From the NCBI GenBank assembly GCA_028704885.1, contig JAQWEN010000001.1, forward strand, positions 651,203-715,202: a stretch of 64,000 bases of DNA, read 5' to 3'. This stretch comes from Candidatus Shapirobacteria bacterium (GTDB lineage Bacteria > Patescibacteriota > Microgenomatia > UBA12405). Shown one piece after another: positions 11,319-21,696 of the stretch. Numbering within the stretch: position 1 is the stretch's first letter; every line of letters starts with the position of its first letter. The notes beneath the pieces are model-generated. The model saw nothing but the letters and a program-made list of their open reading frames with translations, searched no databases and was not told where the DNA came from. A program made the translations under genes and the position numbers.

Positions 11319-13232
11319 TTATTGTACAACTTCCCCTTCTTCGGCTTCTTTTTTAGAGTCGTCGGATTTTTTGGGTTCTTCAGCATTTGGCTGTTCAGTT
11401 TGAGCTTCTGGACCTGGTTGACCAGGTTGTTGCTGTTGATAAATAGCAGCGCCAACAGTTTGAAGAATTTGATTTAAATCTTCAGAGGCTTTATCAAGTT
11501 CATCTTTTTTAACATCAGTTTTAGTCAAAATTTCACGAGCTGTTTTTAATTGAGCTTCAATTTTTTCCTTATCTTCTGGTTTAACTTTATCAGCAAAATC
11601 TTTTAAAGTTTTTTCACCAGAAAAAATGGCACCATCTAATTTATTTCGACTTTCAGCTAAACCTTTCTTTTCTTCGTCTTCACGAGCATGAGCTTCAGCT
11701 TCTTTTTTCATTTGCTCGATTTCTTCTTCTTTAAGGTTGGTAGCATTTTGAATGGTAATCTTTTGTTCTTTATTTGTACCCTTATCTTTGGCAGAAACAG
11801 AAAGAATACCGTTACTGTCGATGTCGAAAGTAACTTCGATTTGAGGAGTGCCACGAGGTGCTGGTGGAATGCCATCTAAAACGAAACGGCCAAGAGATTT
11901 ATTGTCATTAGCCATTGGCCTTTCACCTTGAAGAACATTGATCTCCACTTGAGGCTGACTGTCAGCATAGGTAGTGAAAACTTGAGATTTCTTGGTAGGA
12001 ACGGTAGTATTTCGTTCAATTAAAGGAGTACGAACACCACCAGCGGTTTCAATACCAAGAGTTAATGGAGTGACATCCAAAAGAACGACATCTTTAACTT
12101 CACCGGTTAAAACAGCACCTTGGACAGCAGCACCGATAGCGACGACTTCATCTGGATTGACAGTGTTATTTAATTCTTTGCCAAAAAAGTTTTTGACGAC
12201 TTCTTGAACTTTTGGCATACGAGTCATACCGCCGACCATGATGATTTCTTTAATATCAGCTTTGGTGACTTTAGCGTCTTTAAGAGCTTTTTCGACTGGA
12301 GCAATAGTTTTTTGAATTAAATCATCAACTAATTTTTCCAATTCAGATCGAGTTAACTTTTTGGTTAAATGAAGAGGCTGACCATCTTTTTGGGTAATAA
12401 ATGGCAAATTAATTTCGGTTTCAGCAGCCGAGCTTAATTCAATCTTGGCTTTTTCAGCAGCTTCACGAACACGCTGTAAAGCTTGAGAATCTTTACTGAG
12501 ATCGACACCATTTTGCTTTTGAAAATCGTCAGTGATCCAGTTAATAATCTTTTGATCAAAATCATCGCCACCAAGGAAAGTATCACCGTTGGTAGATTTA
12601 ACTTCGAAAATGCCACCACCGATTTCGAGAATGGAAATATCAAAAGTACCGCCACCTAAATCGTAGACAGCAACTAATTCATTACCTTTTTTATCCAAAC
12701 CATAGGCTAAAGCAGCAGCAGTTGGTTCGTTGACAATTCTTTGAACATTAAGACCAGCGATTTCACCGGCTTGTTTAGTAGCTTGGCGTTGAGCGTCGTC
12801 AAAATATGCAGGAACAGTAACGACGGCATCGGTAACTTTTTCACCTAAATATTTTTCAGCATCGGCTTTACATTTCTGTAAAATCATAGCGGAAATTTCT
12901 TGAGGAGTGTAGGCTTTACCATTAATTTCAACCGAGGCAGTATTATCTTTACCGGCGACAATTTTATAAGCAGCAACACCTTGAGTTTTTTTAACCTCTG
13001 GATCGTCCATGCGTCGACCCATTAAACGTTTGACACTATAGATAGTGTTTTGAGAGTTAAGAACCATTTGACGCTTGGCTAAATCGCCGACCAATTTTTT
13101 GACTGGTTCAACAACTGAAGGAATAGTATTGCGGCCTTCAGCGCTGATGATAACTTTTGGTTTACCACCTTCCATAACAGCAACGCAGGAGTTGGTAGTA
13201 CCTAAATCGATTCCGATTATTTTGTTTGACAT
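11319..13232 (-). CDS. dnaK: molecular chaperone DnaK (Hsp70)
   Basis: [22 protein letters not shown] and the full Hsp70 architecture with an acidic C-terminus. 637 aa. Confidence 0.97.
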
Positions 13233-16445: not shown

Positions 16446-16871
16446 CTATTTTACTGTTTTTAATGCCTCTTCGTCAAAGCCATCTTTGGCAACATTAAAA
16501 TGAAACTCAATATTGGAGTAATTTTCTTTTATATAATCAACAATTTGGGGAATAACTGCACTATTATTTATTCCAACCCACGATCCATCACCTAGTAATG
16601 AATGAAAGCCTTTTTCTTCTTCCACAAAAGTAGCTAAATTATTTTTAGGAAAATATTGGTCAAATTCAGTATTAATACTCGCAATCATATCTATTAATTG
16701 ATGCTGGAGTTTTTGTCTGTTTTCGGCTGAATATTTTTTTGAGCCTTTAATATCAAATAAAAATAAACAGGCGCCATTTTTTTTGATAAAAGAGTCAGCT
16801 TTTTTAACACATTCTTCAATAGATATTCCTTTTGTTGGTTTATTTTCTATATTTTTTAAATTTTCTTTCAT
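16446..16871 (-). CDS. hypothetical protein
   Basis: 141-aa ORF tightly packed between dut and rmuC. No confident family. Confidence 0.45.
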   Translation of the reverse strand: MKENLKNIENKPTKGISIEECVKKADSFIKKNGACLFLFDIKGSKKYSAENRQKLQHQLIDMIASINTEFDQYFPKNNLATFVEEEKGFHSLLGDGSWVGINNSAVIPQIVDYIKENYSNIEFHFNVAKDGFDEEALKTVK

Positions 16872-20300: not shown

Positions 20301-20405
20301 ACCAGTGCCGGCACCAGCAATAACCATAACTGGACCTTCAATGGTATTGACGGCCAGTTTTTGTTCGAGATTTAGTTTTTGGTATTCGTTTTGGAAATTG
20401 GTCAC
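17310..20405 (-). CDS. UvrD/Rep-family ATP-dependent DNA helicase fused to a C-terminal PD-(D/E)xK (RecB/Cas4-like) nuclease domain
   Basis: Walker A AGAGTGKTQT. Helicase motifs VDEYQDTNSSQ and VHGAKGLEFDHVFIY. The C-terminal 250 aa have a CPLCFYY... Cys cluster and a nuclease-like fold. 1031 aa. GTG start. Confidence 0.85.
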   Translation of the reverse strand: MTNFQNEYQKLNLEQKLAVNTIEGPVMVIAGAGTGKTQTIALRIANILDKTDTKPSSVLCLTYTDVAANNMRNRLLDMIGPDAYKVKICTFHAFCNDIISSNPQYFPFASSSLKAIDDLETIEIIKNIIDHLDNSSPLITWGDRYCYQRSILDCLHLAKRENISKETLLDLIKDEENFFQNSGDFINQLSNIRATKNNYSEINKIFDELENSKFISLNLKSHLQIIRSGNENLSQVKNEVRKFYQDFEKNIPKQKEFVKIFDQYQQELQKRALYDYEDMILFVIKAFNDNPDLLLNFQEKYQYILVDEYQDTNSSQSQIIDLLGSYYDNPNIFVVGDDDQSIFRFQGASIENIYNFYQKYNPKKIVLKNNYRSHKLILDSSDSVISHNKNRIANLITDIDKTLIANKNYDPDPINLITLNSNIEEDYYVAQKISDLIKSGQSPSEIAILLRKNRDAEELTKMLSAFNIKFFLPSDSNLLKNPLIIQIIKLLEFVDNPNLNESVYHILAAPFIKLNSLDLVKILKSKTILCNLIFDEKEIDKLNVSDKSKQIISKFGKRIAKTKVDLENYPLEKVLNKILKRFRILKYCLSKNDIESLNQVHSFYKLLKDTVAKKDLSLKEFIDRIHLYDENKISVSSPSITYDSSDSIKILTVHGAKGLEFDHVFIYRLLEDSWEKQRDFNKLKLPFGILRSEITKSIEDDYEEDRRLFYVALTRAKKQIYLSYSQYKENGKNQNPSIFVSEIDSKLIENIKFNDKTAALKTYYQFTDVSHDLKPDLSEYLKDYLTNHYKFNVSHLNSYLRCPLCFYYKTILRIPQNKEKFSSFGTAIHTALSVFYQKKSQEEILKTFEQSLKNERLPKADYQWCLENGHKILTQYYDQYVNSVKDDNISEYNFAAENIVYKNIPLTGKIDLIEKEANGKINVIDFKTGNSDNKYKELSSDGDYYRQIVFYKLLLDIKNDSRFKFNQGIIDFIEKSKLKKSFIRKEISVADEDLNKLKTQIEDVYQKILNLEFFEIGKDCKDKDHLHYLLK

Positions 20406-20479
20406 TAAGCTAGTTTATCAAAGAAAAAGCCCCGAGGTTTGATAATGAATATCAAAAGCCTTGAGGCTTAATCACAGTA

Positions 20480-20824
20480 CTAAAAATCAACCAAATCAGG
20501 TGGAAGTTCAACTATAATCAATTCTGCTTTAGAATCTTTTTTAATTTTAATATTGAACCCCCTCATCACGCTGATAATGTTCCATTCTGTAGTAAACGGA
20601 AGATTGGTAATGTTATTTAATTTCAAAATATCCTTGAAGCGGTAGATCATTTGATTATCCTTCTTGAGGCAATGGAGACAACCATTACAAATATCTTGGA
20701 TAATAAAAAGAGAGATTTTCTGTTCAGTCATTATTAGAGAAACGACATTACTGTGACGTTCGACTTCGTCGTTGATTTTGCCTTGGAAAAAATTATTGAT
20801 GAAAGAATTAAAGTCATAAGACAT
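20480..20824 (-). CDS. hypothetical protein (orphan small gene A)
   Basis: 114 aa. Strong SD (AGAGGGGG) and a strong promoter upstream. Contains CNGCLHC. Confidence 0.5.
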   Translation of the reverse strand: MSYDFNSFINNFFQGKINDEVERHSNVVSLIMTEQKISLFIIQDICNGCLHCLKKDNQMIYRFKDILKLNNITNLPFTTEWNIISVMRGFNIKIKKDSKAELIIVELPPDLVDF

Positions 20825-20914
20825 GATGAAGGACCCCCTCTTATTTAATTTGGATATAGCTGTGATTTAAAAGAACTTTACCGTTACAAACAAGATGTTT
20901 TTTAACGTGGGTGG

Positions 20915-20942
20915 ATTTTACCTAATTTTAGGGAAAAGTCAA
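20915..20942 (-). promoter_or_regulatory. sigma70-like promoter for small gene A (-35 TTGACT, 16-nt spacer, -10 TAAAAT)
   Basis: The minus strand reads TTGACTtttccctaaaattaggTAAAAT. A nearly identical module lies at 21487-21514. Confidence 0.6.
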
Positions 20943-21040
20943 TAAAAAGCCCCGAAAAAAGAAAAATGATAATAAATTATCATTAATCCTCTTTTGAGGC
21001 TTTAATTACATCGCTGCTGACGATTTAGGTGTTCAAGTTG

Positions 21041-21397
21041 TTATTGAGGGTATTTAATTTTGATAGTATGGGTATAGGATTCAAGTAGAGTTGAGACATA
21101 ACTTTTTTCGGCTATGATATTAAAAACTTTCAAATCATCACAAGCATGGCTGGCTTGAAGTGAAAATCTATCCGTATTATCAATATTAATAGCTTTAAAA
21201 AGGTTTTTGTCAAACTTAAATTGAATATGTTCGGCATCGATTTTTTTGCCAAAATTAAGACCATTTTCAATTTCATTAACAATGAAAGAGACAATGGCTT
21301 TGATGGCTTCAAAATCAGAGAACTCGTTATTAAATTTTGATTCGAGTTCGTTTTTCTTGTTAGTGTAGTATTTATTGACAAAATCTTTCATTTCCAT
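21041..21397 (-). CDS. hypothetical protein (orphan small gene B)
   Basis: 118 aa. SD GGAGGA. Preceded by a duplicated promoter and bounded by 15-bp perfect inverted repeats. Confidence 0.5.
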   Translation of the reverse strand: MEMKDFVNKYYTNKKNELESKFNNEFSDFEAIKAIVSFIVNEIENGLNFGKKIDAEHIQFKFDKNLFKAINIDNTDRFSLQASHACDDLKVFNIIAEKSYVSTLLESYTHTIKIKYPQ

Positions 21398-21486
21398 TTA
21401 TTATTTCCTCCAATATTGGGAATGTCAGCAGCGATGTAAAGGTGCTTTTTTTATGTTACAAAACGCGACGTTTTGAACATGGGTAT

Positions 21487-21514
21487 ATTTTACCTAATTA
21501 TAGGTGAAAGTCAA
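21487..21514 (-). promoter_or_regulatory. sigma70-like promoter for small gene B (-35 TTGACT, 16-nt spacer, -10 TAAAAT)
   Basis: The minus strand reads TTGACTttcacctataattaggTAAAAT. Downstream leader carries the 7-3-7 palindrome caaaacg-tcg-cgttttg. Confidence 0.6.
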
Positions 21515-21543
21515 GAAATGATAAATTGTCGAAATAATTTTTT

Positions 21544-21696
21544 TTAAAGAAACTTAAATAAAAAGGCAAAGGCGATAATAGAACTGGCAAGTAAAATTAC
21601 AAGAAAATTTGGATTTTCGGTGAAACATTTGTGATTTTTGCAGCAAACAGATTTTTTAGAAACTATTTTTTTTGGAGCAGATTTTTTCTTGGTCAT
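21544..21696 (-). CDS. possible small Lys-rich protein with C-terminal TM segment (50 aa)
   Basis: Manual translation gives MTKKKSAPKKIVSKKSVCCKNHKCFTENPNFLVILLASSIIAFAFLFKFL. Below the ORF-track size cutoff. No clear SD. Confidence 0.2.
   Translation of the reverse strand: MTKKKSAPKKIVSKKSVCCKNHKCFTENPNFLVILLASSIIAFAFLFKFL

What the first reader, a model, noticed from the sequence alone, without database searches (positions are those of the whole stretch)
20825..21540. Two orphan small genes each driven by a duplicated strong promoter plus conserved leader palindrome
Upstream of both the 114-aa and 118-aa ORFs lies a near-identical ~60-nt module on the minus strand. It reads TTGACTtt-cc-ta-aattaggTAAAAT-(2)-ACCCA-GTT-AAAAAC-TC--TTTGTAAC (A: 20880-20942; B: 21450-21514). 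These are consensus -35/-10 hexamers with a 16-nt spacer. In B the leader carries a perfect 7-3-7 palindrome caaaacg-tcg-cgttttg, and A has an imperfect counterpart. Each gene also has a strong SD. The two proteins are unrelated to each other and to known families. Identical strong promoters with an operator-like palindrome suggest a co-regulated pair, for example stress- or damage-inducible. They sit next to a DNA-repair cluster (helicase-nuclease, dut, rmuC).
Basis: seen in the sequence. Interest (0 to 1): 0.5.

Follow-up and report, generated by a model that had tools for sequence, protein, structure and literature searches.

The report
Duplicated small-gene unit with clamped mRNA
Two neighbouring small genes of an uncultivated Shapirobacteria bacterium are diverged copies of one lineage-specific gene, each keeping the same strong promoter and an mRNA whose two ends are predicted to fold and pair with each other; this is a tidy example of a known kind of mRNA design rather than a new regulon.

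Summary
Two promoter-plus-leader modules lie at 20881-20942 and 21453-21514 (minus strand), and there are no other copies in the window. The interpretation needs correcting.

(1) The two proteins are not unrelated. They are diverged paralogues of a tiny family: 8 clusters among 1.84 billion representatives, and every member with a named source is Candidatus Shapirobacteria.

(2) The repeated unit is larger than reported. It runs: promoter, a hairpin starting at the predicted +1, a 5'UTR segment that pairs with a 3'UTR segment around the whole ORF (16 perfect bp in B), a strong SD, the ORF, and a long terminator hairpin.

(3) The same unit precedes family members in four other lineages. There both stems keep pairing through compensatory and G·U changes. 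The module is far better conserved than synonymous sites, while the proteins drift almost freely.

(4) A profile of the module finds it only in front of this family in 479 kb, so it is neither the generic promoter nor a visible dispersed regulon.

Best reading: a tandemly duplicated, self-contained expression unit whose "palindrome" is a 5'-terminal RNA hairpin. Together with a 5'/3'-UTR clamp (as in B. subtilis hbs) it controls mRNA stability or processing. Protein function is unknown.

The parts
21487..21514 (-). Unit B promoter: -35 TTGACT (21514-21509), conserved 16-nt spacer, -10 TAAAAT (21492-21487)
   Evidence: Across six units the -35 is 100% conserved, the spacer 82% and the -10 94%.
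21453..21480 (-). Unit B 5'-terminal hairpin. It starts at the predicted +1 (21480) and contains the 7-3-7 palindrome (21475-21459).
   Evidence: RNAfold MFE and centroid. Pair counts with compensatory and G·U changes.
21424..21439 (-). Unit B 5'UTR arm of the long-range closing stem (TTACATCGCTGCTGAC)
   Evidence: I22: 16 nt, 100% complementary to 21006-21021. Predicted in both MFE and centroid.
21407..21411 (-). Unit B Shine-Dalgarno GGAGG, 9 nt before the ATG
21041..21397 (-). ORF B, 118 aa (NCBI PHE32_03665, annotated from Met3)
   Evidence: Family membership.
21006..21021 (-). Unit B 3'UTR arm of the closing stem (GTCAGCAGCGATGTAA)
   Evidence: I22.
20944..21003 (-). Unit B long terminator hairpin (28-nt arms) plus U-run. 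It abuts the -35 of unit A.
   Evidence: I2.
20915..20942 (-). Unit A promoter: -35 TTGACT (20942-20937), spacer, -10 TAAAAT (20920-20915)
20881..20908 (-). Unit A 5'-terminal hairpin, the imperfect counterpart of the palindrome. Predicted +1 at 20908.
20856..20870 (-). Unit A 5'UTR arm of the closing stem (TTAAATCACAGCTAT)
   Evidence: RNAfold MFE and centroid. The sequence differs from B's arm but still pairs.
20834..20840 (-). Unit A Shine-Dalgarno GAGGGGG
20480..20824 (-). ORF A, 114 aa (NCBI PHE32_03660)
   Evidence: AF2 model pLDDT 77.5. Family membership.
20468..20482 (-). Unit A 3'UTR arm of the closing stem (TAGTACTGTGATTAA). It overlaps the TAG stop codon.
20424..20469 (-). Unit A terminator hairpin plus U-run (AAGCCTC...GGGGCTTTTT)
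   Evidence: It is orthologous to the terminators that precede the helicase gene in relatives.

Best explanation
The two genes are a tandem duplication of one self-contained expression unit. That unit belongs to a small, fast-drifting protein family of unknown function, found here only in a subclade of Candidatus Shapirobacteria and always immediately upstream of the UvrD/PD-(D/E)XK helicase-nuclease gene.

Each unit consists of:
- a near-consensus sigma-70-type promoter with a conserved spacer;
- a 13-17 bp duplex between the 5'UTR and the 3'UTR that encloses the SD and the whole ORF;
- a strong SD;
- the ORF;
- an unusually long intrinsic-terminator hairpin.

**Shown:** paralogy, conservation of the unit in other lineages, and maintenance of both stems through compensatory and G·U changes.

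**Inferred:** the transcription start site. Also inferred is the function. With both mRNA ends locked in structure, the transcript is shielded from 5'-end-dependent and 3'-exonucleolytic decay. This would give high, stable expression in the manner of 5'-terminal stabiliser hairpins and the hbs 5'/3'-UTR interaction.
For: **Paralogy and family**
- BLASTP A vs B gives E=3e-4.
- A profile of A+B finds only 8 clusters in 1.84e9 representatives.
- A profile built without A or B scores them at 4e-19 and 6e-17.

**Synteny and the unit in relatives**
- L024, L029/30/35/36, L042 and L043/44 carry the unit at the same locus (sequences).

**Constraint**
- Synonymous sites of gatB, the helicase and dut are near saturation between lineages (pS ~0.53, dS 0.7-1.1).
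- dN/dS is 0.05-0.15 for those genes but 0.3-0.67 for the small genes.
- Yet the -35, spacer, -10 and hairpin stay 100/82/94/74.5% identical, against 40% for the discriminator.

**RNA pairing**
- 86.7-88.9% of cells pair, against <=49% when partners are slid.
- 7 pairs change on both sides.
- There are 6 G·U pairs (all internal to the stems) against 4 A·C, only one of which is internal.
- All six units fold to the same architecture in both MFE and centroid, with z from -2.2 to -7.8.
- The hairpin always starts 7 nt after the -10 at a purine.

**Specificity**
- nhmmer finds the module only before family genes in 479 kb.

**Precedent**
- The hbs mRNA has a 14-bp 5'/3'-UTR interaction that protects it from RNase Y (PMC5737220).
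Against: - There is no transcript data, so the +1 and the 3' ends are predictions.
- Covariation rests on six units from five lineages, and unit A aligns poorly in its 3' arm.
- The conserved spacer is not explained by an RNA mechanism and hints at a DNA-binding regulator.
- In L024 and L029 the local terminator is missing after gene 1. The 3' arm is followed directly by a U-run and then a second gene, so the terminal clamp is not invariant.
- It is not known which RNases this organism has.
- A duplex of 13-17 bp could equally be an RNase III target, which would be destabilising rather than protective.
Confidence: 0.55

Rival explanations
1. The leader palindrome, and perhaps the conserved promoter spacer, is a DNA operator for a repressor. 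The two genes would then form a co-regulated stress- or damage-inducible pair.
For: - The palindrome lies at +1 to +28, a classic roadblock position.
- The 16-nt spacer is 82% conserved against 40% for the discriminator. Ordinary sigma-70 promoters do not need a conserved spacer.
- The spacer contains CCTAA-N2-TTAGG.
- The locus adjoins repair genes and the hrcA-grpE-dnaK genes.
Against: - Changes in the palindrome keep RNA pairing rather than DNA symmetry: C-G becomes U·G in L029 and L042, and A-U becomes G·U in L043.
- Changes in the spacer palindrome are not symmetrical.
- Co-regulation is trivially explained by duplication of paralogues.
- There are no further copies in 479 kb.
- There is no resemblance to LexA, Cheo or CIRCE boxes (by inspection of the sequence, from my own knowledge of those consensus sites).
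Confidence: 0.15
2. The RNA structures are real but act negatively or as processing signals. The 13-17 bp 5'UTR/3'UTR duplex would be an RNase III site, as in rRNA precursors or icaR. Cleavage would remove both terminal hairpins and either mature the mRNA or trigger its decay.
For: - The duplex is long and perfect: 16 bp in B and 15 bp in L029.
- icaR 5'-3'UTR pairing creates an RNase III substrate (review PMC7821165).
- The stem is placed outside the SD and ORF, like rRNA processing stems.
Against: - The stem tolerates bulges, mismatches and shortening to ~13 bp in A, L024 and L043.
- Nothing in the sequence distinguishes cleavage from protection.
- RNase III was not looked for in this genome.
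- The strong promoter, strong SD and 5'-terminal hairpin suggest a design for high output.
Confidence: 0.15
3. The inverted repeats flanking each ORF are DNA recombination sites of an invertible on/off switch or a mobile cassette.
For: - A perfect 16-nt inverted repeat brackets ORF B (I22).
- Presence of the unit is patchy among close relatives. For example L034 (gatB 92% identical) has a HAD hydrolase gene in that slot instead.
Against: - In L042, L043 and unit A the repeats contain G·T-type mismatches and bulges. These are tolerated in RNA but not expected in recombination sites.
- All 15 unit copies (13 related contigs plus the two in the window) have the ORF in the same orientation relative to the promoter.
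- No recombinase gene lies in the locus.
- Conservation collapses at the start codon, not at the repeat.
Confidence: 0.03
4. The pair is a toxin-antitoxin-like module. It could be type I, with fold-back inhibition of the mRNA by 5'-3' pairing, or type II, with an autoregulated palindromic operator.
For: - 5'-3' long-distance pairing is typical of hok-type and aapA-type toxin mRNAs (own knowledge).
- The genes are small, fast-evolving and patchily distributed.
- An antisense promoter-like site lies at 21375-21404 on the plus strand.
Against: - The proteins are soluble, 106-118 aa, and paralogous to each other.
- L042 and L043 carry a single gene.
- The antisense promoter-like site is not conserved in L029.
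- There is no PADLOC or Pfam toxin or antitoxin hit.
Confidence: 0.02

Closest known systems
B. subtilis hbs mRNA 5'/3'-UTR interaction (Braun, Durand & Condon 2017, PMC5737220)
   Same: - A small, monocistronic, strongly translated mRNA.
- A structured 5'UTR and a strong SD.
- A ~14-bp long-range duplex between the 5'UTR and the 3'UTR. In hbs this duplex protects against endonuclease (RNase Y) entry.
   Different: - Here the duplex is 13-17 bp and sits next to a hairpin at the very 5' end and next to the terminator.
- It is conserved with covariation across lineages, whereas the review PMC7821165 reports that the hbs 3'UTR is not conserved among close relatives.
- No RNase data exist here.
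- The encoded protein is unrelated to HU and is not basic (pI about 5-6 for most members).
5'-terminal stem-loop mRNA stabilisers (E. coli ompA leader; B. subtilis ermC/aprE-type 5' stabilisers; own knowledge)
   Same: A stem-loop with 0-1 unpaired nucleotides at the predicted 5' end, followed by a strong SD.
   Different: - The 5' end is predicted, not mapped.
- The hairpin is combined with a 5'/3' clamp.
- The organism is a CPR bacterium whose RNase repertoire was not examined.
S. aureus icaR 5'-3'UTR pairing and rRNA-type RNase III processing stems
   Same: Base pairing between sequences flanking a whole gene, giving a double-stranded segment long enough for RNase III.
   Different: - In icaR the 3'UTR pairs with the SD and blocks translation.
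- Here the SD lies 12-25 nt downstream of the 5' arm and outside the duplex.
Repressor-controlled promoters with operators overlapping the spacer or +1 (lac/LexA-type)
   Same: A conserved promoter spacer and a palindrome at +1 to +28.
   Different: - Substitutions preserve RNA pairing, including G·U, rather than DNA half-site symmetry.
- No cognate regulator was identified and no other sites were found.

Membership tests
Sigma-70-type promoter | -35 and -10 hexamers close to TTGACA / TATAAT, 16-18 nt apart | tested here: met
   TTGACT-N16-TAAAAT scores 10/12 in both units. The hexamers are 100% and 94% conserved in six units.
Sigma-70-type promoter | Transcription initiates about 7 nt downstream of the -10 | not testable with these tools
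   No transcript data. A purine lies at the 7th base after the -10 in all units.
5'-terminal stabiliser hairpin | A stable stem-loop with few or no unpaired nucleotides at the mRNA 5' end, conserved as structure | tested here: inconclusive
   The hairpin starts at the predicted +1 (+2 in unit A) in all six folds. Three pairs show changes on both sides, and G·U pairs occur. The 5' end itself is only predicted.
5'-terminal stabiliser hairpin | Removing the hairpin shortens mRNA half-life | not testable with these tools
   This needs an experiment.
5'/3'-UTR interaction (hbs/icaR type) | Complementary segments in the 5'UTR and 3'UTR of the same transcript | tested here: met
   16/16 bp in B (I22). 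13-17 bp in A, L024, L029, L042 and L043.
5'/3'-UTR interaction (hbs/icaR type) | Pairing maintained in evolution by compensatory change | tested here: met
   Four pairs of the long stem change on both sides. 86-90% of cells pair, against <=49% in slid controls. The sample is small.
5'/3'-UTR interaction (hbs/icaR type) | The interaction alters RNase cleavage or translation | not testable with these tools
   This needs an experiment.
   C-G to T·G and A-T to G·T changes break DNA symmetry but keep RNA pairing. There are 6 G·U pairs, all internal to the stems, against 4 A·C mismatches, only one of which is internal. Changes in the spacer dyad are asymmetric.
   nhmmer finds none at E<0.01 in 479 kb (window plus 44 loci) other than before family genes. 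Exact-pattern scans of genome and metagenome collections gave only chance hits. The rest of the 735-kb genome could not be read.
Invertible DNA element | Perfect inverted repeats, both orientations observed, recombinase nearby | tested here: not met
   The repeats are imperfect in A, L042 and L043. Only one orientation is seen in all 15 unit copies (13 related contigs plus the two in the window). No recombinase lies in the locus.
Toxin-antitoxin module | A distinct toxin and antitoxin (or antisense RNA) encoded together | tested here: not met
   The two proteins are paralogues. Other lineages have a single gene. There are no PADLOC or Pfam hits.
Any described protein family or fold | Significant sequence or structure match | tested here: not met
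   - Pfam, NCBIfam, PHROGs, PADLOC and PDB profile searches gave nothing significant.
- Foldseek against PDB and BFVD found nothing at E<=0.001.
Any Rfam RNA family | A covariance-model match | tested here: not met
   No match at gathering score in the window. Only one chance-level hit at E<=1 in 20380-21560.

The most novel reading that the evidence does not exclude
The conserved RNA frame (5' hairpin plus 5'/3' clamp) is not just a stabiliser. It could be a recognition scaffold for a trans-acting factor, possibly the encoded protein itself, whose AF2 model weakly resembles La-motif and winged-helix domains. In that reading the fast-drifting small proteins modulate, or act as decoys for, the adjacent helicase-nuclease in a virus-host or symbiont-host conflict in CPR bacteria. 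That would make this a new autoregulated accessory system tied to DNA-end processing.
Probability: 0.08. Interest if true: 0.7.

Novelty: new variant of a known kind. Interest (0 to 1): 0.38.

Why it matters
Almost nothing is known about gene-expression signals or mRNA decay in Candidate Phyla Radiation bacteria, because they are uncultivated. This locus offers three things.

1. It is a compact, comparative-genomics-supported example of a complete expression unit: promoter, 5'-terminal hairpin, 5'/3'-UTR clamp, SD and terminator. Its non-coding parts are under much stronger constraint than the protein they express.
2. If the clamp stabilises the mRNA, it extends the hbs-type mechanism to a distant phylum. 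It would also provide a ready-made strong, portable expression cassette.
3. It defines a new orphan protein family that is always placed next to a helicase-nuclease gene.

It does not reveal a new regulon or a damage response.

Tried and rejected
- **Collection scans for the module.** Exact-pattern scans used TAGGTAAAATNNACCCANGTT in GTDB genomes and AATTAGGTAAAATNNACCCA in JGI metagenomes. They returned only chance hits in unrelated taxa, without a -35 or a hairpin. The window's own genome is not in those collections. In hindsight ACCCA was a poor choice because it is not conserved.
- **Word-indexed protein search.** It found only the proteins themselves. The full HMMER scan was needed.
- **Jobs with relatives' proteins.** The single-sequence model of B was useless (pLDDT 37.6). 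afdb50 was unavailable.
- **Homology of the second small gene.** I first thought the second small gene of L024 and L029 (100-101 aa) belonged to the same family. hhalign (probability 0.2%) and hmmsearch reject this.
- **Positive selection.** dN/dS is 0.3-0.67, or dS is saturated. This is weak constraint, not demonstrated diversifying selection.
- **Phage or plasmid origin.** There is no match in phage records or IMG/VR and no PHROG hit.
- **Other models.** Integron attC, inverton, TA, LexA and CIRCE readings were considered and rejected (see rivals).
- **Alignment of unit A.** MAFFT would not place unit A's 3' arm in register. The pair counts are therefore unreliable for unit A in the long stem: a few of its cells pair only by chance. 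Its stem is taken (alignment A5).

Full report
**Observation**

On the minus strand, both small ORFs are preceded by TTGACT-N16-TAAAAT: A (20824-20480, 114 aa) and B (21397-21041, 118 aa). The 28-nt pattern covering -35, spacer and -10 occurs exactly twice in 64 kb, with none expected by chance. The repeat finder reports 48 nt at 83% identity. B's leader holds the perfect 7-3-7 palindrome at 21475-21459, and A has an imperfect counterpart. Both ORFs have strong SD sequences. The neighbours are gatC-gatA-gatB and a 50-aa tail-anchored ORF upstream. Downstream lie a UvrD + PD-(D/E)XK helicase-nuclease, dUTPase, RmuC and hrcA-grpE-dnaK.

Each ORF is bracketed by an inverted repeat between its 5'UTR and 3'UTR. 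In B the arms are 21439-21424 and 21021-21006, 16 of 16 complementary (I22). In A there are about 13 bp with two bulges and a G·U, of different sequence. Each unit ends in an unusually long terminator hairpin with the same outer sequence, AAGCCTC...GGGGCTTTTT. RNAfold gives both transcripts the same architecture in MFE and centroid. A hairpin sits at the predicted 5' end, a long-range closing stem encloses the SD and ORF, and a terminator hairpin follows (z = -7.6 for B and -2.2 for A). The repeated thing is therefore a whole expression unit of about 570 nt, not a 60-nt module.

**The proteins**

Word-indexed searches of 5.8e9 proteins found only the proteins themselves. They are annotated as hypothetical proteins of a Candidatus Shapirobacteria MAG (PHE32_03660/03665, contig 735,491 bp).

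The two proteins are related:
- BLASTP gives E=3e-4 over the N-terminal 69 residues.
- A profile of both, run against 1.84e9 cluster representatives, finds just six further clusters of 106-138 aa.
- A profile built only from those six non-window members scores B at 4e-19 and A at 6e-17.

**Relatives**

gatB homologues at 79-94% identity gave access to the syntenic locus in other Shapirobacteria.

| Lineage | What sits in the slot |
|---|---|
| L024-28 and L029/30/35/36 | a family gene with the module, then a second small orphan gene |
| L042 and L043/44 | a single family gene with the complete unit |
| L032/33, L034, L037-39 | a HAD hydrolase gene on the other strand |
| L031, L040 | other ORFs |

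The second gene in L024 and L029 has a plain promoter and no detectable homology to the family. The unit is therefore accessory and patchy. When present, it is always directly upstream of the helicase-nuclease gene. The window is the only genome seen with two family units in tandem.

**Constraint**

Between the window, L024 and L029, synonymous sites of gatB, the helicase and dut are close to saturation (pS about 0.53, dS 0.7-1.1), with dN/dS of 0.05-0.15. The small genes have dN/dS of 0.3-0.67 where it can be estimated, and only 22-43% amino-acid identity. They are weakly constrained, and positive selection is not demonstrated.

The non-coding module is far better conserved than neutral sites:

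| Segment | Mean pairwise identity |
|---|---|
| -35 | 100% |
| spacer | 82% |
| -10 | 94% |
| discriminator (internal near-neutral yardstick) | 40% |
| hairpin | 74.5% |
| 5' arm | 65.5% |

In the three-way alignment, conservation collapses at the start codon and returns at the 3' arm.

**RNA or DNA?**

The distance from the -10 to the first base of the hairpin is fixed at 6 nt, and that base is a purine in all units. The hairpin therefore begins at the predicted +1.

On alignments of four and six units, 87-89% of cells pair, against at most 49% when partners are slid by 1-3 columns. Seven pairs change on both sides, for example A-U to G-C and U-A to C-G at the base of the hairpin, and T-A to C-G and G-C to A-T in the long stem of L029. 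The non-Watson-Crick pairs number six G·U on the sense strand, all internal to the stems, against four A·C, only one of which is internal. That asymmetry is expected for an RNA structure, not for a DNA operator or a recombination site. All six units fold to the same architecture. The sample is small, so this is good but not overwhelming evidence.

**Regulon test**

An nhmmer profile of the module (-35 to ATG, seven sequences) was searched against all sequence held: 479 kb, made up of the window and 44 loci. It hits only in front of family genes. Exact-pattern scans of GTDB genomes and JGI metagenomes gave only chance matches. No Rfam family matches. There are no phage or viral matches. The module is thus neither the generic promoter consensus nor, as far as can be seen, a dispersed regulon. 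The "co-regulated pair" is a duplicated gene. The remaining ~670 kb of this genome could not be examined.

**Mechanism**

I commit to the following, at about 0.55. It is a self-contained high-expression unit whose mRNA is closed at both ends. A 5'-terminal stem-loop hinders 5'-end-dependent decay. A 5'/3'-UTR duplex joins the 5' leader to the region just before the terminator. A long terminator hairpin blocks 3' exonucleases.

This matches what is established for 5'-terminal stabiliser hairpins (own knowledge). It also matches the 14-bp 5'/3'-UTR interaction of B. subtilis hbs, which protects against RNase Y (PMC5737220; review PMC7821165).

- **Shown:** the anatomy, the paralogy, the conservation and the covariation.
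- **Inferred:** the start site, the 3' end and the effect on stability.

The main rivals are:
- an RNase III processing or decay site in the same duplex (0.15);
- a DNA operator (0.15). The conserved spacer is its best remaining argument, and the RNA model does not explain that conservation.

Inverton and toxin-antitoxin readings are essentially excluded.

**Verdict**

This is a real, well-defined feature whose interpretation shifts from "regulon of two unrelated orphans with an operator" to [quoted passage not shown]. It is a new variant of known cis-acting mRNA elements, attached to a new orphan protein family in an uncultivated phylum. Interest is moderate.

Noticed in passing
window 20403-20420 (minus strand); L024 ~12545-12566, L031, L032, L034, L037, L040, L042, L043 upstream of the helicase gene: In every lineage a -10-like TAAAAT/TAAACT sits 6-7 nt before the GTG (ATG in L040) start of the UvrD/PD-(D/E)XK helicase-nuclease gene. 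Several lineages also have a TGn extension. No SD is present. This suggests a conserved leaderless mRNA with a GTG start. It also means the small-gene terminator abuts an independent helicase promoter.
   Followed up: partly
window 21480-21451 (minus strand); L024 11684, L042 1358, L043 7923: The predicted +1 of the unit is the A of an AUG (GUG in L029, ACG in unit A). This opens a leaderless mini-ORF MFKT..., which is 9 codons in B, 4 in L042 and L043, and in frame with the main ORF in L024 (one search lists it as a 133-aa ORF). It may be a by-product of the hairpin sequence or a 5'-terminal ribosome-binding feature.
   Followed up: no
window 21544-21696 (minus strand): A 50-aa ORF with a lysine-rich N-terminus, a CC motif and a C-terminal hydrophobic helix follows gatB. 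It is conserved (65-76% identity) in relatives, including lineages that lack the small-gene unit (e.g. L032 and L034). No family match was found.
   Followed up: partly
L024 12162-12464; L029 4768-5073: A second orphan small gene (100-101 aa, 45% identical between the two lineages) lies between the family gene's 3' arm and the terminator. It has its own TTGACA-N17-TATAAC/TGTAAT promoter. It has no detectable homology to the family and is absent from the window.
   Followed up: partly
slot between gatB and the helicase gene: L032 11619-12257, L034 1769-2368, L037 2686-3994, L031 4654-6620, L040 11441-12046: The slot is a small hot spot of gene-content variation among close Shapirobacteria. Depending on the lineage it holds a HAD hydrolase on the opposite strand, an HD-domain protein, or unrelated ORFs, in place of or beside the small-gene unit.
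   Followed up: partly
window 21375-21404 (plus strand): An antisense promoter-like site (TTGACA-N18-TATTAT, 11/12) lies inside the 5' end of ORF B and points into its SD and 5'UTR. The -10 part is not conserved in L029, so it is probably chance.
   Followed up: partly
window 16446-16871 (minus strand): A 141-aa ORF without a Pfam match lies between dut and rmuC. It is present in L029, L030, L035 and L041 but absent in L024.
   Followed up: no
L041 1-144: GC-rich sequence unlike the rest of the AT-rich contig replaces the promoter and leader upstream of the family gene. It is probably an assembly chimera or contig-end artefact.
   Followed up: no
window 21493-21508 and 20921-20936 (minus strand): The promoter spacer contains a second -10-like TAAAAT (TATAAT in B) exactly 10 nt upstream of the assigned -10. 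In B it pairs with an upstream TTATCA as an alternative promoter (21524-21497). This may explain part of the spacer conservation.
   Followed up: no
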